Both the position numbers and the translations under genes were made by a program. Positions 13,595 through 57,548 of a DNA stretch of 64,000 bases are shown here, in pieces (the stretch's first letter is position 1; the number at the start of each line of letters is the position of its first letter). Below the pieces are notes generated by a model. That model did not search any database, was not told the origin of the DNA, and saw only the letters and a program-made list of their open reading frames with translations. The stretch is from Pseudomonadota bacterium (GTDB taxonomy: Bacteria; Pseudomonadota; Alphaproteobacteria; Rhodobacterales; Rhodobacteraceae), in the NCBI GenBank assembly GCA_038533095.1, contig JBCAZI010000004.1, positions 3,028-67,027 of the forward strand, given 5' to 3'.

Positions 13595-13710
13595 CAAGCT
13601 ATTCCAATTTCTGATCTGTTCCACTAGTGATGTGAATCAAGGGCCTGCCTGCTATGATGCAAAGGGCCGCGAGACGCCAAAACACGATTTTAGAAATGAA
13701 GGACATGCAT

Positions 13711-15927
13711 ATGTCAGATCAGACCCTGCCAGATATCATCTACACAAAGACAGACGAAGCGCCGCAATTGGCATCTGCTTCGCTGCTGCCGATCCTGCGC
13801 AAGTTCCTTTCTCAAGCGGATATTACTATTGGCACCAAAGATATCTCGCTCGCTGGTCGTATCCTGGCGGCATTTCCCGAAAAGCTTACGGATGCACAAA
13901 AGGTCTCAGATGATCTGGCCCTGCTTGGCAAAGTCGTGAAAGAGCCGGGTGCGAATGTCATCAAGCTGCCTAATGTTTCGGCCTCTGTCCCCCAGCTGGT
14001 CGAAGCGGTGAAAGAACTGCAAGAGCAGGGCTATGACATCCCGGACTACCACGCCGCCCCCGAAAGCGCGGAAGAGGTTGAGGCGCGCAAACGCTACGAC
14101 GCGATCAAGGGCTCAGCAGTCAACCCGGTACTGCGCGAAGGCAACTCTGACCGTCGCGCGCCATCATCGGTCAAGGCTTATGCCAAGGCGAACCCGCACC
14201 GCATGGGCAAATGGGTCTCTGACAGCAAAACGCGGGTATCCACGATGGGTGCGCGTGATTTCCGTTCGAATGAAACGTCGGTCACCTTGGCGGATGCGCA
14301 GACGCTGAAGATCGAACTGACCGGTGCCGATGGCACGGTCACAACCCTGAAGGACGGCATCGCGATGCCGGCAGGCACCATTGTGGACGCGACATTCATG
14401 TCGGCTGCGGCGCTGAAAGACTTCTTCCATCAGCAAATCGCCCGCACGCTAGAAGATGGCACGCTTTTTTCACTGCATATGAAAGCCACAATGATGAAAG
14501 TGTCGGACCCGATCATCTTTGGCCATGCGGTTGTCGCCTACTTGCAGCCCGTCTTTGACACATACGCTGATGATTTTGCGGCTGCCGGCATTAGCCCAAA
14601 TGGGGGCTTTGGCACGCTGTTTGATGCCATCGATGCGATGCCAAATGGTGCAGCCATCCGGGCCGAGATTGACACGCTGCTGGCAGAACGTCCGCCGCTT
14701 TACATGGTCAACTCAGACCGCGGCATCACCAACCTGCATGTGCCCTCTGACGTGATCATCGATGCATCCATGCCAGCCGTCATTCGTGCGGGCGGCAAAG
14801 GCTGGGGGCCGGATGGGCAAGAGGATGACACCAACTGCGTGATCCCAGACAGCTCTTATGCGTCGGTCTATGACGCCGCTGTAGAATTCTGCAAAGCCAA
14901 TGGCGCGCTTGATCCTGTCACCGCCGGTACAGTGCAAAACGTCGGTCTGATGGCGCAAAAAGCCGAAGAATACGGATCGCACCCGACCACCTTTGAAATC
15001 CCCCATACCGGGACTGTACGTGTGATCGCGGACAACGGCGACGTTCTGCACAGCCATGAGGTTGAGGCTGGTGACATTTGGCGCATGGCCTCTGCCCGCC
15101 GCGCGCCTATCGAAAACTGGATCCAACTAGCGCTCGACAGGATGGCAACTACCGGGTACGAGACGATTTTCTGGCTCGACCGCGACCGCGCCCATGACGC
15201 GGAGTTGTTGAAGTATGTGGAGCCCGCGCTGGCAAAGGCAGGCGTCGCGGATCAGGTTAAAATCATGGCGCCACGCGACGCGACAACACGGTCGTTTGAA
15301 GTGATCTATGAGGGCGACAACACAATTGCCGTCACCGGCAACGTGCTGCGTGATTATCTGACCGACCTGTTCCCCATCCTTGAGGTTGGCACATCAGCCA
15401 AGATGCTATCTGTGGTTGGCCTGATGAACGGTGGTGGCCTGTTTGAAACCGGCGCTGGCGGTTCAGCACCCAAGCATGTCGAACAGCTGGTACAAGAAAA
15501 TCATTTGCGCTGGGACTCGCTGGGTGAGTTCTGTGCGCTGGGTGAAAGCCTGCGGTTCCTTGGTGCCTCGCAAGGCAAAGCCACGGCCAAAATCATGGGC
15601 GATGCTGTCGATGCCGCGACAGAAAGACTGCTGTCCGAAGGGCATTCACCGCAGCGTAAGGCTGGACAGCCCGACAACCGCCACAGCCACTATTGGTTCG
15701 CGCGTTTCTGGGCCGAAGCTTTGGCGGCACAAACGGATGATGCGGCATTGGCCGCAGCCTTTGCACCCTTGGCCGAAGGTCTGGCCACGGGCGAAACCGC
15801 TATCGTGGCAGAATTGTCCCAAGGGCAAGGCACAGCCGTTGATCTGGCCGGGTATTACAACCCATCTGAGGATCGCGCCGCACAGGCAATGCGTCCATCC
15901 GCGACGCTGAATGCGTTGATTGGCTAA
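13711..15927 (+). CDS. icd: NADP-dependent isocitrate dehydrogenase, monomeric type
   Basis: About 738 aa. [29 protein letters not shown] resembles the monomeric IDH N-terminus. AAGGA lies 8 nt upstream of ATG 13711. The track ORF starts earlier, at 13654. Confidence 0.9.
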
Positions 15928-41160: not shown

Positions 41161-41600
41161 CACTGTCTCTTTTTTGACGTCATAGGCCAATCATGGTGTT
41201 CGTCTGTTGCATCACGGGCCCAACGATAGAAAGCATCGTAAAGCAACATACCTGCGTCTAATTGTTCCAGAACATCGCGACACATGCGTGACAAACCCAA
41301 GGATGCGGCCAAGAGCCCCGCGGCCTCCGGTGCTAGGTCGTGCCTGTTGGTATCGGCAGCGCGCACGATGGTCGCCAGTTTCGCAAGGGCCTCAGTCTCT
41401 ATCCCAAACTCTTCAACCATGGTGTCAAAGGTGCATCTTTCGCCGCGATGGCTCCAAAACACGCCCTCCATGTCAAAGGGCGTCGCATGGAACCGCGTCG
41501 CCACGTCACTAACCTGAGATGGCGAAACAAACAGAAACTGCGCCTTGGGGTCGATAAAGCGCGCTAATGTTGGTACGGAAATTTCGTTATATGACGCCAT
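41160..41600 (-). CDS. Chromate resistance protein, ChrB C-terminal-domain-only type
   Basis: 146 aa. IDPKAQFLFVSP...ATPFDMEGVFWSHRGERCTFDTMVEEF resembles the Chrome_Resist domain. Coupled to chrA. Confidence 0.6.
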   Translation of the reverse strand: MASYNEISVPTLARFIDPKAQFLFVSPSQVSDVATRFHATPFDMEGVFWSHRGERCTFDTMVEEFGIETEALAKLATIVRAADTNRHDLAPEAAGLLAASLGLSRMCRDVLEQLDAGMLLYDAFYRWARDATDEHHDWPMTSKKRQ

Positions 41601-41791
41601 GACGCACCCTTGAGTAAGAGATCAAACCGGAAGGATGCAAGTTTTGACTGGCGTCTTACGAGGTGCTTGCGAACCCCTGCGCAATCTGTCTACGGCTGAA
41701 TTCTGGTGCTGTCAAATCTTCGGATACGGGTTTTCGATCAGTACGGACAGAAGCACGGCGTGATACGGCCGCATGTAGTAACACGATAAAA

Positions 41792-41841
41792 TGGTGAGCC
41801 GTGATGGGTTCGAACCATCGACCTACTGATTAAAAGTCAAT
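41792..41841 (-). other. 3' half of a tRNA-Lys(UUU) gene (anticodon arm to CCA) with no 5' half: attachment-site remnant
   Basis: Minus strand reads ATTGA CTTTTAA TCAGT AGGTC GATGG TTCGAAC CCATC ACGGCTC A CCA. The required 5' acceptor strand GAGCCGT and the D arm are not present upstream. Confidence 0.75.
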
Positions 41842-42036
41842 GACACCCAATTTTCGACTATCTGTCGCGTAGCATCTCATGCTGTCCGACGTTGACTGAG
41901 AATAGCCGATATTCTGTAGTAAATGCTGACTATCTGAGCTTGTCCCCTAGTCAAAATCTGTCTATCGTCGTCGCAGGACGTCTAGTGCAATCTCGCAAGA
42001 AATGTCCCCCAGCTGTCCCCCAGAATGGGCTAAGGA

Positions 42037-43251
42037 ATGAAGCGCGACCTTAACGACAGGTTCTTGAAAACCCTCGAACCACCCAGCGAGGGCGTTGGCC
42101 GAATTGAGGTGTCTGATACACGCCGTCCAGGTCTACGCTTCCGTCTCTCTTCATCCGGTCGTGCGTCTTGGGTGTTTGAGAAACGCGTCAAAGGCGGAGC
42201 TAAACGCAAACACACGTTTGGTGCATGGCCGGAACCCATTACGCTTGCGATGGCGCGTTCGATGGCTCTTGAAATTGAAGCTGAGGCAGTCCGCGGCATT
42301 GACCGTGTTGCTATCGCCAAAGCTGACAAGCTGGCAGCGGAAGCGGCAAAGTCATCGCAGTTGACCGTCCGCAAGGTTCTTTCAACCTATGACAAACTCC
42401 ATCTGTCGAACCTACGGCGTGGCTCCGAACGGTTGCGGCAATTGGAGCAATCCCTAGCTGTCAAGTTGGATGACCCCATCGGTTCGCTAACGAAAGGCGA
42501 CCTGCAAACACCCATTGATGAAAAACTGACTGCCGGTCGGAGGGTTTACGCCAATCGTATCCGCGCGGCACTTATGGCCTTTACTCGCTGGGCCTGGGAA
42601 CGCGGCCACATTGAGACAGACATTGGGGCTAGCCTCCCGCGTGCAGCCAAGGAAGCAGAGCGTGAGCGTGTACCGTCCATTAATGAAGTTCGGCAGATTT
42701 GGACAGCCACGTTTGAGATGGGGCCAATTTGGGGGCCGTTTTTGCGGCTGTTGATCCTAACAGCGCAGCGGCGTGGAGAAGTGCTTGGGCTTGAATGGTC
42801 GGAGATAGAATTTGAACGTAAGCGCATCGTGAAGCCAGGCGCGAAGAACAAGAATGGAAAGGAGCATGTGACCCACCTATCGGCACCTGCACTGGCTGAG
42901 CTTAAAATGCTCAAGTCTGATCTGAGGGCCGCCGGTAAGCCCGTTTCGGGATACATTTTCACGACAACCGGCAGAACGCCGATTTCAGGCGTTAGTAAAG
43001 CCAAAGCCCGCTTGGACAAACTTTTGGGCGATGATTTCGATCCATGGCGTCTACATGATCTGCGAACATCATTCTCGACGGCGATGGCGGAAGCGGGTGT
43101 GCCTGAAAGCGTCGCTGACCGCGTGCTGAACCATTCGGCAGTTGGATCTGCGCCAAGCGCCGTTGCACGGGTCTACAACAAGGCCGAGATGCTGCCACAG
43201 CGGGCGGAGGCGTTGGATTCGTGGGCGCGGTTGGTGACCTATGCCGATTAA
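42037..43251 (+). CDS. int: Tyrosine-type site-specific integrase (P4-like, with DUF4102-type N-terminal arm-binding domain)
   Basis: 404 aa. N-terminus LNDRFLKTLEPPSEGVGRIEVSDTRRPGLRFRLSSSGRASWVF. Catalytic region LTAQRRGEVLGLEW ... HDLRTSFSTAMAEAG ... VLNHS ... VYNK (R..HxxR..Y). Confidence 0.9.
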   Translation: MKRDLNDRFLKTLEPPSEGVGRIEVSDTRRPGLRFRLSSSGRASWVFEKRVKGGAKRKHTFGAWPEPITLAMARSMALEIEAEAVRGIDRVAIAKADKLAAEAAKSSQLTVRKVLSTYDKLHLSNLRRGSERLRQLEQSLAVKLDDPIGSLTKGDLQTPIDEKLTAGRRVYANRIRAALMAFTRWAWERGHIETDIGASLPRAAKEAERERVPSINEVRQIWTATFEMGPIWGPFLRLLILTAQRRGEVLGLEWSEIEFERKRIVKPGAKNKNGKEHVTHLSAPALAELKMLKSDLRAAGKPVSGYIFTTTGRTPISGVSKAKARLDKLLGDDFDPWRLHDLRTSFSTAMAEAGVPESVADRVLNHSAVGSAPSAVARVYNKAEMLPQRAEALDSWARLVTYAD

Positions 43252-43945
43252 CCGTGAAAAGAACCCTCTTGATGACTTTTGGGACGAGCTCAAGAACAAC
43301 GCTGAAATCACACGCATTTTGGCTGTGATGGAAAGATTTAACCGAACCGGATACCATGTAAGCGTCTCCGATGCGCTGCCACTCTCGAAGGGTTGGATAT
43401 GCGATCCTGATATTCAAGATGCAGTGCCCGCATCCACTGCCGATGACTTAAAACGGCTTACAAAGGGAATCGAAGCCGCCAATGCAGCACTGAAATCGCT
43501 CCATCCTTCTATTTTGCAGTCGCTAGAATATAGCTTTGCATCTACACGCAAAGAAGAAGACGGCGTCAGGTTCTTTACCCGACAAAATGAACCCTTCAAT
43601 TGTTATGATCAGATTTCGACTCTTCTCACTTATTTACAAGAGGGGCTTGCAAAGGAGAATCCTGCCTCTCCCATTACCAACGCGCTAAAGTTTGCAGAAG
43701 AAATCCCCACGAAATCAAAACAGGCTACCATTCATTCAACTTGGGCCAAGATCAAGCTTGTAAGGAATGCGCGTGCAATCTGGCCAAGCTTAACCGGAAA
43801 TCGTTCTGCTCCATTGGAGCCAAGCCCAGGGACAAACTTCTTTGAATTTGTTGCCGAACTAACTTGTGCTTTGGAATTAAGCGAAGGTTGGGAAACCAGA
43901 AGCGTTTTCAACGCCTATAAAAAGCATACAAAATCAAAGTCTTAA
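43241..43945 (+). CDS. Hypothetical protein (234 aa), AT-richer orphan between int and alpA
   Basis: Long ORF overlapping the int stop by 11 nt. I recognise no motif. By eye its composition is lower in GC than its neighbours. Confidence 0.55.
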   Translation: MPINREKNPLDDFWDELKNNAEITRILAVMERFNRTGYHVSVSDALPLSKGWICDPDIQDAVPASTADDLKRLTKGIEAANAALKSLHPSILQSLEYSFASTRKEEDGVRFFTRQNEPFNCYDQISTLLTYLQEGLAKENPASPITNALKFAEEIPTKSKQATIHSTWAKIKLVRNARAIWPSLTGNRSAPLEPSPGTNFFEFVAELTCALELSEGWETRSVFNAYKKHTKSKS

Positions 43946-44053
43946 CTCGCCACCCATAGCTGATGTCAAAAAAACTGAACTAGCTATGGGTGCCACAACA
44001 TCAACTTGGCAGCAGAGTCGCATTCAGTAGCAACCGAACGCGAGGTGCATCAA

Positions 44054-44254
44054 ATGACATTTGCAAGCCAAGACCGCCTTGTTTCAGTCCGTGATACAGC
44101 AGCCATGTTGGGCTGTAGCGTTGCCACGGTCTGGCGCAAGGTATCGGAAGGGTCATTTCCGCAGCCGATGAAAATCGGCGGGATGACACGATGGTCGGAG
44201 ACTGAGCTCCTAAGCTTTATCGATGACGCCAAACAAACACGCGAAGCCGCCTAA
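44054..44254 (+). CDS. alpA: AlpA-family transcriptional regulator / excisionase-like HTH protein
   Basis: MTFASQDRLVSVRDTAAMLGCSVATVWRKVSEGSFPQPMKIGGMTRWSETELLSFI is the canonical AlpA/MerR-like phage HTH. The track ORF starts at 44006. Confidence 0.85.
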   Translation: MTFASQDRLVSVRDTAAMLGCSVATVWRKVSEGSFPQPMKIGGMTRWSETELLSFIDDAKQTREAA

Positions 44255-44718: not shown

Positions 44719-44840
44719 AGCGCCTCCAAACTTCAAAACCCCGCCAACTCCAAGAACGTCGCATTCGCTGGCAGCATGGTTTGTCGCGATCACGGGCAGG
44801 ACTGATTGCCCAGCTGCACTATGGGGAAGCGCGCCAATGA
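44715..44840 (+). CDS. Small basic ORF (41 aa) translationally coupled on both sides
   Basis: Below the track cutoff. GAGGAGG lies 7 nt upstream of ATG 44715. Sequence MKRLQTSKPRQLQERRIRWQHGLSRSRAGLIAQLHYGEARQ. Its TGA overlaps Prim-Pol ATG 44837 (ATGA). Confidence 0.4.
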   Translation: MKRLQTSKPRQLQERRIRWQHGLSRSRAGLIAQLHYGEARQ

Positions 44841-45631
44841 GTACTTCGTTCAAAATGTTTCCTGTTGGCCCGGACAAACGGCCTTTGCTTACTGGCTGGC
44901 AAGACAAAGCTACCGCTGACCCGAAAATCATCGCTGATTGGCAGAAGCAAGGCGCAAAGGCATTCGGTATCCCGACCGGGGAGAGCAACGGCCTTTTTGT
45001 CATTGATCTCGACACAGACAAGGAAACCGGAGAGGCAATTGGTGCGGCAAAGTTAGAGCAGAGCCGCTATGGCTACTTGCTGGATCAGGTGTGCGTCACA
45101 ACGCCGTCAGGTGGTGCGCACATCTACTTTCAGCATTTCGAGGGCGCACGTAACTCAACCTCGAAGCTAGCGCCCAAGGTAGATACCAGAGGCGAAGGCG
45201 GGTATGTCGTTGCTCCTGGCTCAGTAATCGCATGTGGCGAGTACAAAGGGGCTTACCCAAGTAGTCTGCCTGTAGTCCCTTTGGGGATACGCGCGTTGCT
45301 TCTCCAAAAGCATCAGCCGCAAACGTACAGCGGCGGCAGAGAAGCCGCTGCAGGCGAAGTGCAAGAGCTTTTAGAGTACATCCCAGCCGATTGCACGTAC
45401 AGCAACTGGGTGGCTGTTTTGATGGCCCTCCATGCGAAGTTCGCAGGCTCCGAGGAAGGCCTGCAGGTCGCCGACACTTGGAGCGCTTCTGGGTCGAAGT
45501 ACAAGCCCGGCGAAGTCGCTTCAAAGTGGCGCACATTTAAGGGCAGCGGCGTCTCCTGGGCGACCATCCCGGCGCTGGCACGACAAAATGGTGCAGACCT
45601 CTCAGAGATTGCGCGGAGGTGGCCTGCATGA
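44837..45631 (+). CDS. Bifunctional DNA primase/polymerase (Prim-Pol N-terminal domain + PriCT-2-like C-terminal domain)
   Basis: MFPVGPDKRPLLTGWQDKAT, GLFVIDLDTD, GGAHIYF and VDTRGEGGYVVAPGS are Prim-Pol motifs. The C-terminus YSNWVAVLMALH...KWRTFK is PriCT-like. The track ORF starts at 44699. Confidence 0.8.
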   Translation: MSTSFKMFPVGPDKRPLLTGWQDKATADPKIIADWQKQGAKAFGIPTGESNGLFVIDLDTDKETGEAIGAAKLEQSRYGYLLDQVCVTTPSGGAHIYFQHFEGARNSTSKLAPKVDTRGEGGYVVAPGSVIACGEYKGAYPSSLPVVPLGIRALLLQKHQPQTYSGGREAAAGEVQELLEYIPADCTYSNWVAVLMALHAKFAGSEEGLQVADTWSASGSKYKPGEVASKWRTFKGSGVSWATIPALARQNGADLSEIARRWPA

Positions 45632-46695
45632 ATGTAATGACACTGAACCGATCATCCGAAAGAGCAGCAGAGCTTGCAAAGAAGATGGTCGCATCGCGCG
45701 ACGTCGAGCCAACGCTAGCCACGAACTACCTTATGAAGGGGTGGCTAGACAGGAGGTGCCAATCGATCCTTTACGGGGCCTCGAACGCGGGCAAAACCTT
45801 TGTGGTGCTTGATATGGCCATGCATGTGGCTGCCAACCTCCCTTGGCGTGGGCATCGTGTTCGTGGCGGGGCGGTCCTATACATTGCCGCTGAAGGCCAA
45901 GCGGGTATCAACAACCGGATTGCAGCAATCAAGGCAGATAAGCCTGATCTTGCAGACGCTGACCTGGACGTGCTCCCTAGCACGGTTGATTTGTATGGCA
46001 GTCAAGATGCGCTAGCCATCTGTGAGGCGATTTCGGGACCTCCTCCAGTACTCATAATTGTTGATACATTGGCGCGTGCAATGGGTGGCGGAGATGAGAA
46101 CACTGCTAAGGATGCGGCCGTGTTCCTAGCCAACTGCAAGCTTATCGAAGAGGCCACTGGTGCCCATGTCATGGTCGTACATCACAGCGGCAAAGACTCC
46201 GATAAGGGCGCAAGAGGTTCTTCAGCTTTTCGGGGCGCAGTAGATACCGAAATCAGCGTCACCGCAGATGGCAAAATCGAAAGCCATAAACAGCGCGATC
46301 AGCCAAAGCCTGACCCGCTTTATTTCAGCCTGCGGCCAGTCGTGTTGGGCGTAGACGAGGACGGAGAAGAAGTGACTTCTGCCGTGGTCGATGCTGCTGA
46401 TCCTCCAAAGGCAACCAAGAAGCCGCTCACGGGCAAGAACGAGGTCGCCATCCAAGCTCTCGACGATGCCCTAAGGGAACATGGCAGCTCAAAATCTGGC
46501 AACTTCTACCCGGTTGGGCGCAAGGTCGTCCACATCGACCATTGGCGAGCTGCCTGCAAGGTTCATGGACTTACCGGCGGCGCCAGCGAAAGCTCGGAGC
46601 GCATGGCGTTCAAACGAGCCAAAGACAAACTGATGGACCTCAATGAGGTGCGCGAGTGGGGCGACCACGTTTGGAGGGTTCAAGAAGATGACTAA
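45628..46695 (+). CDS. RecA-fold AAA ATPase, RepA/AAA_25-like replicative helicase-type protein
   Basis: Walker A YGASNAGKTFVVLDM, Walker B LIIVDTLARAMGGGDEN, and VMVVHHSGKD. ATG 45628 forms an ATGA overlap with the Prim-Pol stop. Confidence 0.75.
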   Translation: MNVMTLNRSSERAAELAKKMVASRDVEPTLATNYLMKGWLDRRCQSILYGASNAGKTFVVLDMAMHVAANLPWRGHRVRGGAVLYIAAEGQAGINNRIAAIKADKPDLADADLDVLPSTVDLYGSQDALAICEAISGPPPVLIIVDTLARAMGGGDENTAKDAAVFLANCKLIEEATGAHVMVVHHSGKDSDKGARGSSAFRGAVDTEISVTADGKIESHKQRDQPKPDPLYFSLRPVVLGVDEDGEEVTSAVVDAADPPKATKKPLTGKNEVAIQALDDALREHGSSKSGNFYPVGRKVVHIDHWRAACKVHGLTGGASESSERMAFKRAKDKLMDLNEVREWGDHVWRVQEDD

Positions 46696-46701
46696 TCGAA
46701 T

Positions 46702-46801
46702 CGTCACAAACGTCACGCACCGTCACAGTGCGTCACCTGTTCTGCCCAGTTCTACCGTCACGAACGTCACACACACCTATAGGTGTGTGACGGATGTGAC
46801 G
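46702..46801. repeat. Iteron-like array: six direct CGTCAC copies (46702, 46711, 46721, 46731, 46756, 46765), two inverted GTGACG copies (46787, 46796), and a near-perfect palindrome ACACACCTATAGGTGTGT
   Basis: Read directly. The first four copies are spaced 9-10 bp apart, one helical turn. Located immediately after the RepA-like gene. Confidence 0.8.
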
Positions 46802-46842
46802 CTGGGTGGCTTCTCTGGGGGCAAGAAGGAGGCTGTTCTCAA

Positions 46843-47151
46843 ATGAAGCATCAAAGACACTTCTGGAAGGCTGGTATCAACTCAGAAACAGGCTTTGCCT
46901 TACTGGCCGAGTACGGCAGCCAACCGGGCTACTTCGCGCAAGGCCCGGATGGGTCCGTTCGTCCGCTTACAGCCACGGAGTCCGCGGCGGTGGTCGATAA
47001 GTTGGGAGAGGCCCCTAAGCGGCTCATACCGCCCTCATGCAGCCCCAAACACAACACAGGCCTTCGCGAACGCGTTGCGCAAGCAATGGGATACGAAAAG
47101 CGCACAAGCAGCGCCACTGACAAAGGCAGGTACACAGCACATGACTTCTGA
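46843..47151 (+). CDS. Hypothetical protein (about 102 aa)
   Basis: ORF MKHQRHFWKAGINSETGFALLAEY..., starting after the iterons. Overlaps the DUF5681 start by 11 nt. The track ORF begins at 46783, inside the palindrome. Confidence 0.45.
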   Translation: MKHQRHFWKAGINSETGFALLAEYGSQPGYFAQGPDGSVRPLTATESAAVVDKLGEAPKRLIPPSCSPKHNTGLRERVAQAMGYEKRTSSATDKGRYTAHDF

Positions 47152-47590
47152 GGAAGACAACCGCAATCGCGGTGAATTAGCGGAGGGGCGCACCCCAGAT
47201 GGACGTTTCGCCAAAGGTAATAAGGGGCGACCATACGGGACACGCACAAGGGCCACGAAGGCGGTTATGGAGATACTCGACGGCCAAGTGGAACAGATCA
47301 CGGAAAAGGCCCTCAGCTTGGCCCTGCAGGGCGACACGACCGCTTTGCGACTGTGTCTCGAACGGATAGCACCGCCCCGCAAAGATGCTCCAGTTGAGTT
47401 TGATCTTCCCAAGATGGAAGGTGCGGACGACGCTGCCAAGGCCGCAGCATCTATCCTTGCTGCGGTCTCGCAAGGGGACCTGACGCCAACCGAGGGCGCT
47501 CATGTGATGGCTCTGATCGAGACCTATCGTAGGACCTTGGAAGCTACCGAAATCGAAAAACGACTGACAGAGCTGGAGAACGCTAGATGA
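47141..47590 (+). CDS. DUF5681-like protein (about 149 aa)
   Basis: RFAKGNKGRPYGTRTRATKAVMEIL...ALQGDTTALRLCLERIAPPRKD resembles the basic G-rich N-terminus plus helical core of DUF5681, from memory. I prefer ATG 47141 over the track start 46895. Confidence 0.5.
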   Translation: MTSEEDNRNRGELAEGRTPDGRFAKGNKGRPYGTRTRATKAVMEILDGQVEQITEKALSLALQGDTTALRLCLERIAPPRKDAPVEFDLPKMEGADDAAKAAASILAAVSQGDLTPTEGAHVMALIETYRRTLEATEIEKRLTELENAR

Positions 47591-48437: not shown

Positions 48438-50195
48438 ATGGAACTTCTTGAAGCCCAAACACAGCCCGAAAGACTTCAGTATTCAGAGAGTGATCTGAAA
48501 GCGGCAGCGATCAGAGCTCAAAATGCTGGAGACATCGCGGCAGCACGTCGGTTGGTAGAGGCCGCACGCAATGCGGCGAGCCAACAGAGCCCGACAGTTG
48601 GGCAACCAGCGATGTCGCCTTTGCCGAACAGCAGTCCACTAGCCGGTGACAACCCAACGCCTGTCAGTAGCACCGCTTCTTTGCCTTCTCTGACGCCAGG
48701 GGTCCAAGCCAACGGCCAAGGTGCAGCTATGAACATCGGTGCAAGGGGCCGTCGCGCCAATCGTGCCGACACACCAGCGGCAAGTCATCCCGGTATTTTT
48801 CAAACACTGCGCGACAACATCATTGGCGATGATGACGATACCACGATGAACTTCGGCGAAAGACTAGGTGCAGCCCTCAACAAAGGCGGCGAAAGCATGA
48901 CCATGGGCCTTGTCGGTGACGAGATGGCGGGGCGCGCCGACGCACTGATCGGGCGCGGCACGGCAGAAGACCGGACCCAGTTCTATCGTGATCAAGAGAA
49001 CCAGCTAGACGAACAGCACCCGGTACTTTCGACAACAGCCGCGATTACCGGTGCGATCATTGGTCCAGCCAAAGGTGCGACCGGGTTTGTGAACGCGGGA
49101 CGCAACGCCGGCACCAGAGTTGGCCGAGGCGCAATGGTTGGTGCCGGAGCCGGAGCAACCTATGGCGCGATGGAGGGCGAAACCGCTGAAGAGCGCCTTA
49201 CAGGTGGCCTTGTAGGCGGAACGATGGGCGCTGTGACAGGTGGTGCGCTCACTGGCGCAGGCCAGGGGTTCAGCGCTGCTGCTCAACGCCTCACTGGCAA
49301 GCCACAGGCGCAAGAGGTATTGCCAACGCTACAAAGCCTCACTGATGAAGCTCGGGGCCTCTATGCAGCCGCTGAGCGCGCTGGTGGGGTAGTTTCCCAG
49401 CAATCAATTGCAGGGCTCACGAAGAATACGCAAAGCGCTTTACGTGAGGCAGGATATAACCCTCGCCTGCATCCTCGGATGGGCGCGGTTTTAGATGAAA
49501 TGCAGGAGCTAAGTACCGGCCCAGCTTCTTTGCGCGCTATGGACCAACTCCGACGGGTCGCAGGCAACGCAGCTGAATCGCTGCAACGTGATGAGCGCCG
49601 ATTGGGAAGACTTGTGATCGGACGTATCGATGAAGCAGTTGAACAAATGGACGGTGGGGCAGAGGTCGCTGCCGCGCGGGAAGTGTGGGGTCGCTTGCAG
49701 CGGATGGCTACAATCGAAGGCGTCATTGAGAAGGCCAGTAACTCGCCAAACTTCGAAACGACCCTGGCGACTGGTTTCAGGTCCCTATTGAACCGCAAAG
49801 GTGCTTTGCGTGGTTTTAGGGACGAAGAGATACGGACTATGCGCCAGATAGCGAGTGGTGGGGGTGGAGCAGGTACGCTCAGAGCGCTAGGCAACATCTT
49901 GGCCCCTGATCGCTTCTCCGGCCAAATGTTGACGGGTGGGGCGCTTTTGGGTGGCGGTGGCATAGGGGCCTTGGCTATTCCGGCAGCGGGCGCGACGATG
50001 CGTGGAGCAGGTAACCGGCTTCAGCGGCGATCAGCAGATGGATTGCGGAACTCAGTGGGTCAGAGTGACGCCAGCCGCGCCTTGATGGACGCAATTGTTG
50101 CTCCTCCAAATCCGTTTGCAGGCGCGAGTGGTGCAGTACCGGTAGTCGGGCCCGCAACAACAGAGAACCTGATGCGTGCAATCAAAGGCCGGTAG
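48438..50195 (+). CDS. Large Ala/Gly-rich hypothetical protein (585 aa) with glycine-zipper-like hydrophobic segments
   Basis: Longest ORF of the element. Contains the segments TTAAITGAIIGPAKGATGF, GAMVGAGAGATYGAM, GGLVGGTMGAVTGGALTGAG and GGALLGGGGIGALAIPAAGA. No catalytic motif recognised. Confidence 0.6.
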   Translation: MELLEAQTQPERLQYSESDLKAAAIRAQNAGDIAAARRLVEAARNAASQQSPTVGQPAMSPLPNSSPLAGDNPTPVSSTASLPSLTPGVQANGQGAAMNIGARGRRANRADTPAASHPGIFQTLRDNIIGDDDDTTMNFGERLGAALNKGGESMTMGLVGDEMAGRADALIGRGTAEDRTQFYRDQENQLDEQHPVLSTTAAITGAIIGPAKGATGFVNAGRNAGTRVGRGAMVGAGAGATYGAMEGETAEERLTGGLVGGTMGAVTGGALTGAGQGFSAAAQRLTGKPQAQEVLPTLQSLTDEARGLYAAAERAGGVVSQQSIAGLTKNTQSALREAGYNPRLHPRMGAVLDEMQELSTGPASLRAMDQLRRVAGNAAESLQRDERRLGRLVIGRIDEAVEQMDGGAEVAAAREVWGRLQRMATIEGVIEKASNSPNFETTLATGFRSLLNRKGALRGFRDEEIRTMRQIASGGGGAGTLRALGNILAPDRFSGQMLTGGALLGGGGIGALAIPAAGATMRGAGNRLQRRSADGLRNSVGQSDASRALMDAIVAPPNPFAGASGAVPVVGPATTENLMRAIKGR

Positions 50196-50321
50196 TCCGG
50201 CAACAGCAGGCATTCGCGCCGTCTAGCAGCGGGAAGCAAATAAATTAAACTGTCAGATGTTCGCTTCGAGCCCAGTGACACCGATGCTGGATTTTGCGCG
50301 AACGTATTGTTTTCTGTGTTA

Positions 50322-54146: not shown

Positions 54147-54522
54147 GCCATGACTTAGTATGCTATCTACGTTTACGTAGCTTGGTCATAAAATACATCA
54201 GTACGCTATAAATACAGGCTCCGGCGGGATCGGTGTAAGCGCCATGAACAAATAAAAAACAAAAGGCAGTTTGAGGTTCATCGCATTTCCCCTTTTTAAT
54301 GCCATCTGGTTAACGGCACTCAACTCCCTGTCTAGAAGTCAGCGTGCAATGCGCCGACACAGACCCATGAATCTGAAAAGGTATACCGCAAATCCACCGT
54401 GAGGCATGCTCAAACCAAGGTCCGCTCTGGGCTGGCACTGGTCAACCAGCCAAATCTGTCAGATATCAGCTTCGAGCCCATCTTTCTTCATGCTGCACGC
54501 ACCACGAACGTCGGCTCAGGCT

Positions 54523-55338: not shown

Positions 55339-55463
55339 TCGTCGGCACCTTTGTTGGAAGCTGTTTGAGACAGCCTGACACAATTGAGACTAGAGGTCCA
55401 ACGTCGGCTTCGAGCCCACTTTTCCGGATGCTGCGCCGCGCGCAAATGGCCGCTTCTTGGAGA

Positions 55464-55967: not shown

Positions 55968-56483
55968 ACTGGAACTTCCTTTCTTTCTTTCAATTGAACC
56001 AAGAACTCATGTTATCGCTGCATTGTCAAATGTGGTTTGACTGTCTTGGAAAACAGTACGAAGCCGACATTAGCGATGGCACTGAGAAGGTACGCTTCGT
56101 CCGCTAAGCAGCCGTAGCCTAAGCGCACTGCTCACATCTGTTTCTTGGCCTTCAAACTCTTGAAACGTTCAATGCGGTCGCTCGTCAAGATCATAGCATC
56201 GGGGTCAACCCGGAGCAGGATGCAAAAGGGACGTGGGTTCATCAGATTCATAATTGGTCAATCTCGGATTTGATGCATGGGGCTGTTCGCTTGGGGTGAA
56301 CAAGCCCTTCAACCGAATACAGAGAAAGCCGAGGTTTGATTCTGCATTTTATGATTGCATAGCGCACGGTACTTCGCGCTAAGATAGTAGAATGATGTTT
56401 CTGCTTTCTTCACATTATTCCACCACCGGTTCGAGAAGGCTCACCTGCGCGCTTCTCCCGTTAAAATGGTTCATATTTGAATA

Positions 56484-57548
56484 ATGCCTGAAATTGCCAA
56501 CTTCAAAGCGCTCCCGATTTCTGCATTTAGCGATCCACCTGGTGGCGGGAACGATCCCTTTATCCTCGCGTCTGATGACCCCGCTCAATTGTTGACAGTT
56601 TCTATTGATGACGATGATGCGACGATTGAGGGCGATACCATCACCAATGAAACGCCGAACGATGCAAATCAGATTGCGACCGTTACAGACGCTTCCGGTA
56701 CGTTGGTTTCGACGGATGCCTGCTATGTAGAATGGACAGCAACATACACTGGCACGAATGGCCAAGTGATCGAAGTCTGGCGTATAGAGTTGGACAACGG
56801 TCTTAGGCTCTTTGCGGTCTCCGAGATTCCCGAGGTTGGCGTTACTTTCACAACAAGTAACAAAGATCAGGGTGCTGACGGTCTTGATCCGGCTGACATA
56901 CCGGACACGCCATGCTTCACATACGGAGTCTTGATCGCTACGACAGACGGACCCCGTCCAATTGAGACTCTCAGAGTCGGTGACCGCGTCGCGCTGGAAG
57001 ACGGAACTGAGTCAGTTATTCGTTGGATTGGTCGGCGAAAATACTCGCTTGAAGAAATCACGGCGAAACCCAAGCTTCGGCCTGTTCGTATCGTCCAAGG
57101 CGCACTTGGAAGTGGCCTGCCGAAACGTGACATGCTCATTTCTCGGCAACATCGTATGCTGATCCAATCTAAGATTGCCGAACGCATGTTTGGCGAACCA
57201 GAGGTATTGGTATCAGCAATAAGACTGACCACATTGCCAGGTGTTTTCATTGATGAAAGCGTGAAAGAAGTTGAGTACTTTCATCTACTTTTTGATCGCC
57301 ATGAGATTATTTTTGCCGAAGGAGCCCCATCAGAGAGCCTATTTACAGGTCCTGAGGCTCTAAAGGCGCTTGGTCGCGAAGCCAGAGAAGAAATCCAAGA
57401 GCTGTTTCCTGAAATTTCAAGTATGAATTACGAGCCTGTCCCCGCCCGTTGTATTCCGACCGCTAAGCGGCAGAAACAGCTTGTACTTCGTCATCAGAAA
57501 AATAACCGGCCATGTGTGGGTTCGCCTGATACGAAAGCGTACAGATAG
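56484..57548 (+). CDS. Hint-domain-containing protein
   Basis: CFTYGVLIATTDGPRPIETLRVGDRVALEDGTESVIRWIGRRK ... HRMLI ... FHLLFDRHEIIFAEGAPSES is the Hint module common in Rhodobacteraceae. The N-terminal region is Asp-rich (SIDDDDATIEGDTITNE). Confidence 0.8.
   Translation: MPEIANFKALPISAFSDPPGGGNDPFILASDDPAQLLTVSIDDDDATIEGDTITNETPNDANQIATVTDASGTLVSTDACYVEWTATYTGTNGQVIEVWRIELDNGLRLFAVSEIPEVGVTFTTSNKDQGADGLDPADIPDTPCFTYGVLIATTDGPRPIETLRVGDRVALEDGTESVIRWIGRRKYSLEEITAKPKLRPVRIVQGALGSGLPKRDMLISRQHRMLIQSKIAERMFGEPEVLVSAIRLTTLPGVFIDESVKEVEYFHLLFDRHEIIFAEGAPSESLFTGPEALKALGREAREEIQELFPEISSMNYEPVPARCIPTAKRQKQLVLRHQKNNRPCVGSPDTKAYR

What the first reader, a model, noticed from the sequence alone, without database searches (positions are those of the whole stretch)
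46702..46801. Helically phased CGTCAC iteron array plus palindrome immediately after the RepA-like ATPase: likely origin of the element
CGTCAC occurs at 46702, 46711, 46721 and 46731 (9-10 bp phasing), and again at 46756 and 46765. Inverted GTGACG copies follow at 46787 and 46796. They flank the near-perfect palindrome ACACACCTATAGGTGTGT (46771..46788). The array fills the gap between the helicase-type ATPase stop (46695) and the next ORF (46843). Such iterons next to pri/rep genes are how PICI and plasmid origins look. The ORF-track entry 46643..46846, with its repeated VTNVTH, is just the translation of these repeats.
Basis: seen in the sequence. Interest (0 to 1): 0.65.

Follow-up and report, generated by a model that had tools for sequence, protein, structure and literature searches.

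The report
Iteron replication origin beside its helicase
The eight CGTCAC repeats and the palindrome just after the RepA-type helicase gene are almost certainly the binding sites where that helicase starts replication of a small integrated mobile element; this kind of origin is already known, but here a single amino acid in the helicase tracks a single base of the repeat.

Summary
Six direct and two inverted CGTCAC hexamers (46702-46801) surround a perfect 20-bp palindrome and fill the gap after the RepA-like helicase gene.

It is not chance: 8 of the window's 41 CGTCAC sites lie in 100 bp. In 73 of 90 distinct related loci, including the cultured Rhizobium phage 16-3 and Roseobacter phage CRP-823, the densest hexamer cluster of the whole locus lies right after the rep stop. 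The layout is shared: direct repeats, spacer, two repeats, a G+C-rich palindrome with an A/T centre, then inverted repeats.

The repeat word differs between elements. In the closest clade it is CGTNAC, and N changes in all copies together. N tracks residue 329 of Rep (T-C, Q-G, V-T, M-A/C). This residue sits in the recognition helix of a predicted C-terminal winged-helix domain. The pairing arose about 16 times and predicted 4 of 6 unseen cases; both Lys cases failed.

The downstream genes are not conserved, no reading frame across the array is conserved, and there is no promoter, terminator, DnaA box or AT-rich stretch.

Verdict: a Rep-bound iteron origin of a PICI-like island. It is a variant of a known kind, and replication itself is untested.

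The parts
46702..46736 (+). Rep-proximal set of four direct CGTCAC iterons (starts 46702, 46711, 46721, 46731; 9-10 bp phase)
   Evidence: homologous four-repeat set in the close-clade loci
46737..46755 (.). 19-nt spacer (CTGTTCTGCCCAGTTCTAC), not AT-rich
   Evidence: a spacer of the same length is present in the close-clade arrays
46756..46770 (+). Two direct CGTCAC iterons (46756, 46765) forming the left arm of the core inverted repeat
   Evidence: I3
46770..46789 (.). Perfect 20-bp palindrome CACACACCTA|TAGGTGTGTG with a TATA centre (46778-46781). Proposed melting and/or priming site
   Evidence: I5. ssDNA hairpin of 46756-46801 has dG -17.6 kcal/mol, z -5.5. An equivalent palindrome lies downstream of rep in 58/95 loci against 42/425 control windows. 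Compensated changes at two stem positions
46787..46801 (-). Two inverted iterons (GTGACG at 46787 and 46796) forming the right arm of the core inverted repeat
45619..46695 (+). rep: RepA/RSF1010-type RecA-fold helicase (AAA_25, residues 23-195) with a C-terminal winged-helix domain. Numbering is from GTG 45619; the database version starts at Met7
   Evidence: Pfam, PHROGs, homologs named 'helicase RepA family protein', AF2 model pLDDT 85.6, best PDB match RSF1010 RepA 1NLF/1G8Y
46432..46677 (+). Coding region for the predicted winged-helix domain (residues 272-353). Recognition helix is 324-340, containing the motif R328-M329-A330-F331-K332-R333
   Evidence: topology H-b-H-H-b-b; top PDB hits are all winged-helix domains, but E is only 0.1-1; R328, A330, F331, R333 invariant
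46603..46605 (+). Codon of Met329, the residue whose identity tracks the central base of the iteron across the family
44837..45631 (+). Prim-Pol + PriCT_2 primase-polymerase. The ORF is open from 44699, but Met at 44837 gives the 264-aa length seen in homologs
   Evidence: homolog lengths of 264-266 aa
44006..44254 (+). AlpA/HTH_17-type small DNA-binding regulator
42037..43251 (+). Tyrosine integrase (Arm-DNA-bind_3 + Phage_integrase)
41792..41848 (-). 3' half of a tRNA-Lys(UUU): anticodon arm, T arm, acceptor end and CCA. This is the att remnant marking the left end of the island
   Evidence: The community-shared 52-nt segment 41788-41839 has 130-560x depth. No second copy in the window
46643..46846 (+). 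Open frame across the array (internal ATG at 46688 overlapping the rep stop). Judged not to be a gene

Best explanation
The array is the vegetative replication origin of a small integrated element (int - orf - alpA - orf - Prim-Pol - rep - ori - variable genes). Rep is a RepA/RSF1010-type hexameric helicase with a C-terminal winged-helix domain. That domain binds the eight CGTCAC words, and residue 329, early in the recognition helix, reads the fourth base. Four direct words next to the rep stop collect Rep. Two direct plus two inverted words place Rep molecules in opposite orientation on either side of the palindrome. The duplex opens at the palindrome's TATA centre, which is the only A/T-rich spot. 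The two strands can then each fold the same hairpin. Rep loads itself as a helicase, the neighbouring Prim-Pol primes, and host polymerase extends, without DnaA. What is shown: the array, its position, its conservation as a pattern, the covariation with Rep residue 329, the winged-helix topology and the helicase fold. What is inferred by analogy (SaPI/PICI Rep-ori, PIME repA-oriV, RSF1010 ssiA/ssiB, pRN1 stem-loop): physical binding, melting at the palindrome, self-loading, priming at the hairpin, and replication itself.
For: (1) Position. In 73 of 90 distinct loci encoding a Rep relative, the densest hexamer cluster of the whole locus lies within -30 to +130 bp of the rep stop (null about 2.5% per locus, binomial P about 1e-99). 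(2) The pattern is conserved, not the sequence. At least 20 different words are used (CGTCAC, CGTGAC, CGTAAC, CGTTAC, TGTCCC, TGTCAG, GGTATCA, CTAGCG, TGCGTACC, ACTACAAA and others) in the same layout. (3) Concerted change. Collinear arrays in the closest clade differ at the fourth base in all copies at once. (4) Protein-DNA covariation. Rep residue 329 carries MI/H = 0.94 with that base (next best column 0.50; observed MI 1.61 bits against a permutation maximum of 1.03). The pairings are T-C 21, Q-G 14, M-A 5, V/K-T 5. On the ATPase-core tree there are about 16 changes of class and 17 of the residue. In 120 database homologs the residue is only T, M, Q, V or K. Neighbouring residues, including ones closer to the array, do not co-vary, which argues against simple linkage. 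(5) Out-of-sample tests. Phage 16-3 p101 (32% identical, CGTGACA words) has R-Q-R-F-N-R; V->T, Q->G and M->A were also correct. (6) Residue 329 lies in helix 324-340 of an H-b-H-H-b-b domain whose best PDB matches are all winged-helix DNA binders. The ATPase part best matches RSF1010 RepA helicase. (7) The array travels with rep, not with downstream genes: 0/74 loci keep the window's orf101, orf82, orf128 or orf585, and the next gene is variously TerL, portal/capsid, defence genes, IS elements or unknowns. (8) This is the only cluster of the word in 64 kb. (9) Experimental precedents place the ori immediately 3' of rep with iterons in opposite orientation around a centre: SaPI (PMC9371898), E. 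coli PICI (PMC6092414), and PIME repA-oriV, where repA is an RSF1010 repA homolog (bioRxiv 10.64898/2026.01.12.698999).
Against: There is no experimental or in-situ evidence of replication. In four metagenome runs the island has the same depth as its flanks and shows no excision junction. The array lacks an AT-rich unwinding element and DnaA boxes, both of which the published iteron origins have. The one-residue code is incomplete: Met pairs with either A or C, and both blind Lys predictions failed because those elements use CGGGAC or GGAC-type words. The winged-helix assignment rests on a predicted model, with Foldseek E-values of only 0.1-1. Residue 329 is encoded about 100 bp from the array, so some co-inheritance by cassette exchange cannot be excluded. 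Support for palindrome compensation is modest in the close clade (two stem positions). In a few relatives (L014, L033, L034) the array lies 2-3 kb from rep.
Confidence: 0.8

Rival explanations
1. Rep does bind the array, but as a control locus rather than the origin: copy-number control or handcuffing, autoregulation, or a switch for the downstream module, as with the incA iterons downstream of repA in plasmid P1 (from my own knowledge of P1). The true origin would lie elsewhere.
For: The covariation shows recognition, not function. The array sits between rep and the next operon, which in many relatives begins with a terminase gene. There is no AT-rich DUE or DnaA box.
Against: A control locus needs a second set of the same words at the real origin. 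No other CGTCAC cluster exists in the island or the window, and in most loci the array is the only strong cluster. It lies downstream of rep, not at its promoter, and no promoter-like site was found in it. In the three experimentally tested systems with this gene order, the equivalent region is the ori.
Confidence: 0.1
2. The repeats are a packaging (pac/cos) site or an operator recognised by a protein other than Rep, for example a small terminase, the DUF5681-like protein or AlpA.
For: In many relatives the array is directly upstream of packaging genes: TerL, portal and capsid. In the window it is upstream of a DUF5681-like ORF. Terminase sites can be phased repeats.
Against: The word co-varies with a Rep residue. 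The array stays attached to rep when the downstream genes are unrelated: defence genes, IS elements or unknown ORFs. A separate conserved motif (TGGTCCCAATGCCCCC) lies between the array and terL in relatives and is absent from the window, so it is the better candidate for a packaging or promoter signal.
Confidence: 0.04
3. The region encodes a small protein (52 codons from ATG 46688, or 67 from 46643) that is translationally coupled to rep and to the next ORF through ATGA overlaps, and the repeats are a by-product.
For: The frame is open. Its ATG overlaps the rep stop and its TGA overlaps the next ATG. Gene callers call the equivalent ORF in relatives (L036 9061-9228, L121 2064-2195). One frame is open in most close-clade arrays.
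Against: The frame through the repeats is +1 in the window, +0 in the close clade and +1 in the mid clade, and no ATG-initiated ORF spans the array in L004 and L064. Because spacings are 9, 10 and 10 bp, successive repeats fall in different frames, so the DNA repeat is not a peptide repeat. The change of central base would turn six codons at once into RN, RH, RD or RY. The ATG arises from the Asp-rich Rep C-terminus (GAT GAC TAA). The word is equally conserved on the opposite strand in the inverted copies.
Confidence: 0.03
4. The palindrome is merely the transcription terminator of the rep operon, and the repeats are incidental.
For: It is a G+C-rich hairpin located after a stop codon.
Against: There is no T-run, and the terminator scan finds nothing in the array. 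The hairpin is flanked by oriented protein-specific words in more than 70 loci. The clustering is far beyond chance.
Confidence: 0.02

Closest known systems
SaPI / PICI replication origins (Rep or Pri-Rep followed by ori)
   Same: Gene order int - regulator (alpA in Gram-negative PICIs) - pri - rep - ori. The ori lies immediately 3' of rep. It holds 6-12 penta- or hexanucleotide iterons, with at least two on each side of a centre pointing in opposite directions. The iterons are read by a C-terminal winged-helix domain of a self-loading helicase, and specificity is cognate (PMC9371898; PMC6092414).
   Different: SaPI Reps are AAA+ helicases placed with the SF3/MCM groups. Here the motor is a RecA-fold RepA/AAA_25 helicase. 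The centre is a G+C-rich palindrome with a 3-4 nt A/T core rather than an AT-rich region. The extra set of four direct repeats is on one side only.
PIME repA-oriV (Pseudomonadota integrative mobilizable elements; bioRxiv 10.64898/2026.01.12.698999)
   Same: An integrated element with int, alpA and a repA homologous to RSF1010 repA. The oriV, with four direct iterons plus inverted repeats, lies immediately downstream of repA, and repA-oriV is shown to be sufficient for replication.
   Different: The PIME oriV has a DnaA box and AT-rich regions of 60-75%, which are absent here. PIMEs carry tra/mob genes and an oriT, and none were detected here. No Prim-Pol is mentioned for PIMEs.
Satellite phage P4 alpha protein with ori/crr
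   Same: A primase + helicase + C-terminal winged-helix origin-binding domain that recognises short repeats present in both orientations (as summarised in PMC4234260). Also an integrase and an AlpA-like regulator.
   Different: P4 alpha has a Toprim-type primase and, from my own knowledge, an SF3 helicase in one polypeptide, plus a second repeat region (crr) kilobases away. Here the proteins are Prim-Pol and RepA-type, and there is a single array.
IncQ plasmid RSF1010 oriV (RepA helicase, RepB' primase, RepC initiator)
   Same: The same helicase fold and a dedicated plasmid-encoded primase. The origin combines iterons with inverted-repeat hairpins (ssiA/ssiB), one per strand, on which the primase starts (PMC8567376).
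   Different: RSF1010 uses a separate initiator, RepC, to read the iterons. Here the helicase carries its own DNA-binding domain and no RepC is present. The primase families differ, and one palindrome would have to serve both strands.
pRN1 ORF904 and BPP-1-type phage replicons (Prim-Pol + helicase + winged helix, stem-loop ori 3' of the gene)
   Same: Prim-Pol (with PriCT_2 in BPP-1), a C-terminal winged helix, and an essential stem-loop downstream of the replication gene (PMC4234260).
   Different: Those helicases are SF3 and the origins are reported to lack iterons. Here iterons dominate and the stem is short (10-17 bp).

Membership tests
Iteron-type replication origin | Several copies of one short word, roughly helically phased, clustered far beyond chance | tested here: met
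   8 copies in 100 bp at 9-10 bp spacing, against about 0.05 expected per 100 bp
Iteron-type replication origin | Located beside the gene of its initiator, and linked to it across relatives | tested here: met
   Begins 7 bp after the rep stop; the same position in 73/90 distinct loci
Iteron-type replication origin | The initiator has a sequence-specific DNA-binding domain matched to the word | tested here: met
   Predicted winged helix. Residue 329 co-varies with the central base, with 4/6 blind predictions correct. Binding itself is not shown.
Iteron-type replication origin | AT-rich DNA-unwinding element | tested here: not met
   40-nt windows across the array have 50-60% G+C; only a 4-bp TATA sits at the palindrome centre
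Iteron-type replication origin | DnaA box(es) | tested here: not met
   No TTATCCACA match with up to 1 mismatch between 39773 and 51312
Iteron-type replication origin | Supports autonomous replication together with its Rep | not testable with these tools
   Needs cloning. Metagenome depth shows no amplification
PICI (Gram-negative type) | Integrase and an alpA-type regulator at one end | tested here: met
   int 42037-43251; AlpA/HTH_17 44006-44254
PICI (Gram-negative type) | pri and rep followed by the ori | tested here: met
   Prim-Pol, AAA_25 Rep, then the array
PICI (Gram-negative type) | Discrete island of about 8-15 kb bounded by att repeats | tested here: inconclusive
   The left end is marked by a tRNA-Lys 3' fragment. 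No second att copy was found in the window. The right end, about 50.2-50.35 kb, is inferred from gene content only
PICI (Gram-negative type) | No phage structural or lysis genes, plus packaging or interference genes | tested here: inconclusive
   No capsid, tail or lysis family detected, but five ORFs, including orf585, have no family. There is only a weak DUF5681 hit. Close relatives do carry TerL, portal and capsid genes
PICI (Gram-negative type) | Induction and packaging by a helper phage | not testable with these tools
   -
SaPI-type self-loading Rep | AAA+ (SF3/MCM-like) ATPase core | tested here: not met
   Pfam AAA_25; best structural match is RSF1010 RepA, then RecA/Rad51/KaiC
SaPI-type self-loading Rep | C-terminal winged-helix domain, with iterons immediately downstream and at least two on each side in opposite orientation | tested here: met
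IncQ/RSF1010 replicon | Separate RepC initiator plus RepB' primase and 20-bp iterons | tested here: not met
   No such proteins among the island ORFs. The words are 6-7 bp.
PIME | Relaxase/tra genes and an IncP-like oriT | tested here: not met
   No relaxase or tra family in any island ORF. oriT was not searched for specifically.

The most novel reading that the evidence does not exclude
The Rep winged helix and its iterons form a natural, nearly one-residue/one-base recognition code. Residue 329 sets the central base of every iteron (Thr-C, Gln-G, Val-T, Met-A/C), and repeated switches (about 16 in the sample) create mutually orthogonal replicons among co-resident roseobacter phages, satellites and islands. 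The invariant palindrome, shared by all specificity classes, would be the common single-strand initiation hairpin for the Prim-Pol on both strands. Together these would define a DnaA-independent origin type, with no DUE, used by Prim-Pol/RepA-helicase replicons from marine islands to Rhizobium phage 16-3.
Probability: 0.45. Interest if true: 0.6.

Novelty: new variant of a known kind. Interest (0 to 1): 0.45.

Why it matters
It assigns a function to an intergenic region that gene callers currently annotate as a hypothetical ORF. It also identifies an unannotated DNA-binding domain on proteins named only 'helicase RepA family / AAA ATPase'. The same origin layout appears in more than 70 environmental elements and in cultured phages (16-3, CRP-823) whose records do not annotate an origin in the regions I inspected. 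The residue-329/central-base relationship gives a testable rule for predicting which elements can cross-activate or exclude each other's replication. It also offers a compact natural system for studying how initiator specificity switches without losing function. In addition, it is a minimal rep-ori module that could be tried as a vector for Rhodobacterales.

Tried and rejected
(1) A hidden tRNA gene just past the arrays of relatives. The conserved 'VPMPPF...SFSLPK' stretch looked like a tRNA 3' end, but ARAGORN found none. It is a conserved motif plus the RBS and start of terL.
(2) My first palindrome-compensation script used the wrong register, because the inverted word overlaps the stem by 2 nt. 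Its 0.46 pairing figure is an artefact and is discarded; it was redone.
(3) The idea that the window's Rep (Met329) is mismatched to its CGTCAC array is rejected. Three other Met329 proteins with a DS(A/S)A-R-M context also pair with CGTCAC, and there is no CGTAAC cluster in the window.
(4) A strict one-residue code is rejected for Lys, where both blind predictions failed.
(5) The search for the island's right att site found nothing: exact and 3-mismatch search, repeat finder, and blastn-short.
(6) Evidence of excision or amplification in metagenome contigs: none.
(7) Nucleotide similarity of the island to known phages: none.
(8) Rfam families in 41-52 kb: only a sub-threshold chrB-a hit outside the island.
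(9) DnaA boxes, an AT-rich DUE, and sigma-70 promoters or terminators in the array: none.
(10) NCBIfam and PHROGs gave no function for orf234, orf119, orf101, orf82, orf128 or orf585.

Full report
OBSERVATION. CGTCAC starts at 46702, 46711, 46721, 46731, 46756 and 46765 on the + strand, and its complement GTGACG starts at 46787 and 46796. The palindrome is perfect over 20 bp (CACACACCTA/TAGGTGTGTG, 46770-46789). With the inner words it forms a 19-nt inverted repeat, 46756-46774 / 46783-46801. The rep ORF ends at 46695 and the next ATG ORF starts at 46843. The window holds 41 CGTCAC sites on both strands, which is near expectation overall (34.7 +/- 5.8), but 8 of them lie in 100 bp where about 0.05 are expected. 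An unbiased scan finds no other hexamer cluster in the window with more than 4 copies.

CONTEXT. The array belongs to an island that starts at a 3' fragment of tRNA-Lys(UUU) on the minus strand (41792-41848). Its genes run on the + strand in this order: tyrosine integrase (42037-43251), an unknown ORF (43241-43945), an AlpA/HTH_17 regulator (44006-44254), an unknown ORF, Prim-Pol + PriCT_2 (44837-45631 within the ORF from 44699), an AAA_25 'RepA' ATPase (45619-46695), the array, small unknown ORFs, a weak DUF5681-like ORF (about 47141-47590), and an orphan 585-aa ORF (48438-50195). Chromate-resistance genes flank it on the left, and a convergent esterase gene lies on the right. No second att copy exists in the window, so the right end (about 50.2-50.35 kb) is inferred only from gene content. 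The window comes from a marine metagenome. In four runs the island has the depth of its flanks and no excision junction, so it is a quiescent single-copy insertion there. Rep homologs are annotated in Roseovarius, Sulfitobacter, Shimia, Jannaschia and other roseobacters, and none is more than 67% identical.

COMPARATIVE TEST. I collected 129 loci that encode Rep relatives, from genomes, viral contigs, metagenomes, exact-protein look-ups and annotated phages. For each locus I asked only where the densest cluster of any hexamer lies. In 73 of 90 distinct loci it lies within -30 to +130 bp of the rep stop, against a null of about 2.5% per locus (binomial P about 1e-99). Several of the 17 'misses' are at -95 to -172 and are probably cases where my frame extension overshot the stop. 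In three loci the array is 2-3 kb away. The word differs widely between elements (CGTCAC, CGTGAC, CGTAAC, CGTTAC, TGTCCC, TGTCAG, TGTCCA, GGTATCA, CTAGCG, TGCGTACC, TGCTACG, CGCACA, ACTACAAA and others). The layout does not differ. Direct repeats 9-11 bp apart start at the stop codon. After a spacer come two more direct repeats, then a G+C-rich palindrome with a 3-4 nt A/T centre (TAG, TATA, TTTA, TAA), then one or two inverted repeats. The same design follows gene p101 of the temperate Rhizobium phage 16-3, with at least 14 CGTGACA words over 350 bp ending in CCCCCACTCC-TTT-AGGAGTGGGGG. It also follows the primase/helicase gene of Roseobacter phage CRP-823. Neither record annotates an origin in the regions I inspected.

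WHO BINDS IT. In the closest clade (Rep 55-67% identical) the arrays are collinear with the window's, base for base. The word is CGTNAC, with N = A, C, G or T, and it is the same in all copies of one element. I classed 41 non-redundant elements by N and searched the Rep alignment for co-varying columns. One column stands out: residue 329 in the window's numbering (MI/H 0.94; next best 0.50; observed MI 1.61 bits against a maximum of 1.03 in 300 permutations). The pairings are Thr with C (21), Gln with G (14, including proteins only 21-33% identical in this domain), Met with A (5), and Val or Lys with T (5). The classes are interleaved on the ATPase-core tree, with about 16 changes of class and 17 of the residue by parsimony. 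Residue 329 sits in an otherwise invariant R-x-A-F-x-R motif. In 120 database homologs it is only T, M, Q, V or K. The residues around it, some encoded closer to the array, do not co-vary, which argues against simple co-inheritance.

THE WINDOW'S OWN PAIRING. The window has Met329 with CGTCAC, which at first looked like a mismatch. It is not. Three other Met329 proteins with the same DS(A/S)A-R-M context also sit next to CGTCAC arrays. Met is therefore compatible with a central A or C.

BLIND PREDICTIONS. Phage 16-3 (Q->G), L128 (Q->G), L125 (V->T) and L129 (M->A) were correct. Both Lys proteins failed: their arrays use CGGGAC and GGAC-type words. The residue always changes when the word changes, but the simple code does not cover Lys.

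THE PROTEIN. An AlphaFold2 model (pLDDT 85.6) shows a RecA-fold core whose best solved match is the hexameric replicative helicase RepA of RSF1010, followed by RecA, Rad51, RadA and KaiC. The C-terminal 90 residues fold as H-beta-H-H-beta-hairpin, and residue 329 lies in the first turns of the third helix. Modelled alone (pLDDT 79.6), the domain's top PDB matches are all winged-helix DNA binders (CRP/CAP, JetB, ORC, histone H1, E2F-DP) at TM about 0.5, but with weak E-values of 0.1-1. Pairs of relatives with 83-91% identical cores but 65-67% identical tails use different words.

THE PALINDROME. A perfect stem of at least 7 bp with a loop of at most 4 nt lies within 220 nt after rep in 58 of 95 loci, against 42 of 425 control windows. 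Arm sequences differ between clades but stay complementary. In the close clade one core (ACACCTC-TAG-GAGGTGT) is shared by all five word classes, so it is not part of the Rep-specific word. Two stem positions show compensated double changes with single-sided intermediates, and Watson-Crick pairing is 0.82 against 0.33 when the partner is slid by one. As single-stranded DNA, 46756-46801 folds into a 17-bp hairpin (dG -17.6 kcal/mol, z -5.5).

RIVALS. (a) Coding. An ATG overlapping the rep stop opens a 52-codon frame that ends in an ATGA overlap with the next ORF, and gene callers call it in relatives. However, the frame through the repeats differs between the window (+1), the close clade (+0) and others, and no ATG-initiated ORF spans the array in two loci. 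Successive repeats fall in different frames, and a switch of the central base would rewrite six codons at once. (b) A pac site or an operator for another protein. The downstream genes are not conserved with rep: 0/74 for four window ORFs, and the next gene is variously TerL, portal/capsid, defence genes or IS elements. The covariation also points to Rep. A different conserved motif (TGGTCCCAATGCCCCC) precedes terL in relatives and is absent here. (c) Terminator or promoter: none detected. (d) A Rep-bound control locus rather than the origin. This cannot be excluded by sequence, but there is no second cluster of the word that could be the 'real' origin.

COMPARISON WITH KNOWN SYSTEMS. Published descriptions of SaPI and PICI origins match the design: iterons immediately 3' of rep, two sets in opposite orientation around a centre, read by a C-terminal winged helix of a self-loading helicase, with function shown by rep-ori plasmids (PMC9371898; PMC6092414). 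PIMEs provide a tested case with an RSF1010-type repA and a four-iteron oriV directly downstream. The differences are consistent across this family. The motor is RepA/RecA-fold rather than AAA+. The primase is a separate or fused Prim-Pol/PriCT_2. There is no DnaA box and no AT-rich region. The centre is a short G+C-clamped palindrome, which recalls the ssiA/ssiB hairpins used by the RSF1010 primase (PMC8567376) and the stem-loop origins 3' of the Prim-Pol replicases of pRN1 and BPP-1 (PMC4234260). Five literature searches found no description of this origin type, of the CGTNAC words, or of an origin for phage 16-3. The library is incomplete, so this is not proof of absence.

VERDICT. The feature is a new variant of a known kind. 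The concept is ordinary for a specialist. The added value is the breadth of the conserved layout and the residue-to-base covariation, which make the specificity directly testable. Nothing here shows that the site fires, and the element's type (PICI-like satellite or remnant) and its right boundary remain open.

Noticed in passing
window 41792-41848 (minus strand): A 3' half of tRNA-Lys(UUU) lies next to the integrase, but no intact tRNA-Lys or second att core exists anywhere in the 64-kb window. The island's right end is therefore undefined: it could be a remnant, or longer than it looks. The 52-nt segment 41788-41839 has 130-560x depth in the metagenomes because many genomes share it.
   Followed up: partly
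L039-L091, about 12-25 nt past the arrays (e.g. L046 2238-2253): A conserved motif, TGGTCCCAATGCCCCC, sits between the array and a terminase large-subunit gene in about 25 related loci. It is followed by a variable stretch and a TCTCTCCC...GGGGGAAAGA element before the ATG. It could be a promoter or a cos/pac signal. It is absent from the window.
   Followed up: partly
L123 3531-3897 (Rhizobium phage 16-3, record 56245-56611): A 350-bp intergenic region after p101 holds at least 14 CGTGACA words in both orientations and a terminal palindrome. No origin is annotated there in the record. It is a likely origin for a classic model phage.
   Followed up: partly
L036 9061-9228; L121 2064-2195; window 46643-46846: Gene callers annotate short 'hypothetical proteins' that are simply the translation of the iteron arrays. 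This looks like a systematic annotation artefact for the family.
   Followed up: yes
window 48438-50195: A 585-aa Gly/Ala-rich ORF has no Pfam or NCBIfam family, only a weak PHROG hit (phrog_5880, unknown function), and no homolog in any of the related loci. It is orphan cargo of the island.
   Followed up: partly
window 41598-41682 (minus strand): A sub-threshold Rfam match to the chrB-a RNA motif (37.9 bits against a gathering score of 43.9, E 0.0012) lies directly upstream of the chrB-like gene, which is where that motif is expected.
   Followed up: no
window 50252-50289, 54458-54495, 55396-55433: A three-copy family of a 38-nt intergenic repeat (GTCAGATGTTCGCTTCGAGCCCA...GATGCTG, 68-71% identical) starts just after the island's last ORF. 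It may be a REP-like element.
   Followed up: no
window 14442-14531: ARAGORN calls a 90-nt tRNA-Cys that lies inside a 757-aa ORF (13654-15927). The length and location make it a doubtful call.
   Followed up: no
L091 1208-1330; L088 2590-2705; L014, L033, L034: Some arrays depart from the standard layout. L091 has a tandem duplication of the first repeat set plus spacer, and L088 has 10 copies. In three loci the array lies 2-3 kb downstream of rep rather than adjacent.
   Followed up: no
L126 and L127, downstream of rep: Two Lys329 proteins pair with CGGGAC and GGAC(A/G) words rather than CGTTAC, in the same layout. This suggests Lys redirects recognition towards G-rich words and that more than one base is re-read.
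   Followed up: partly
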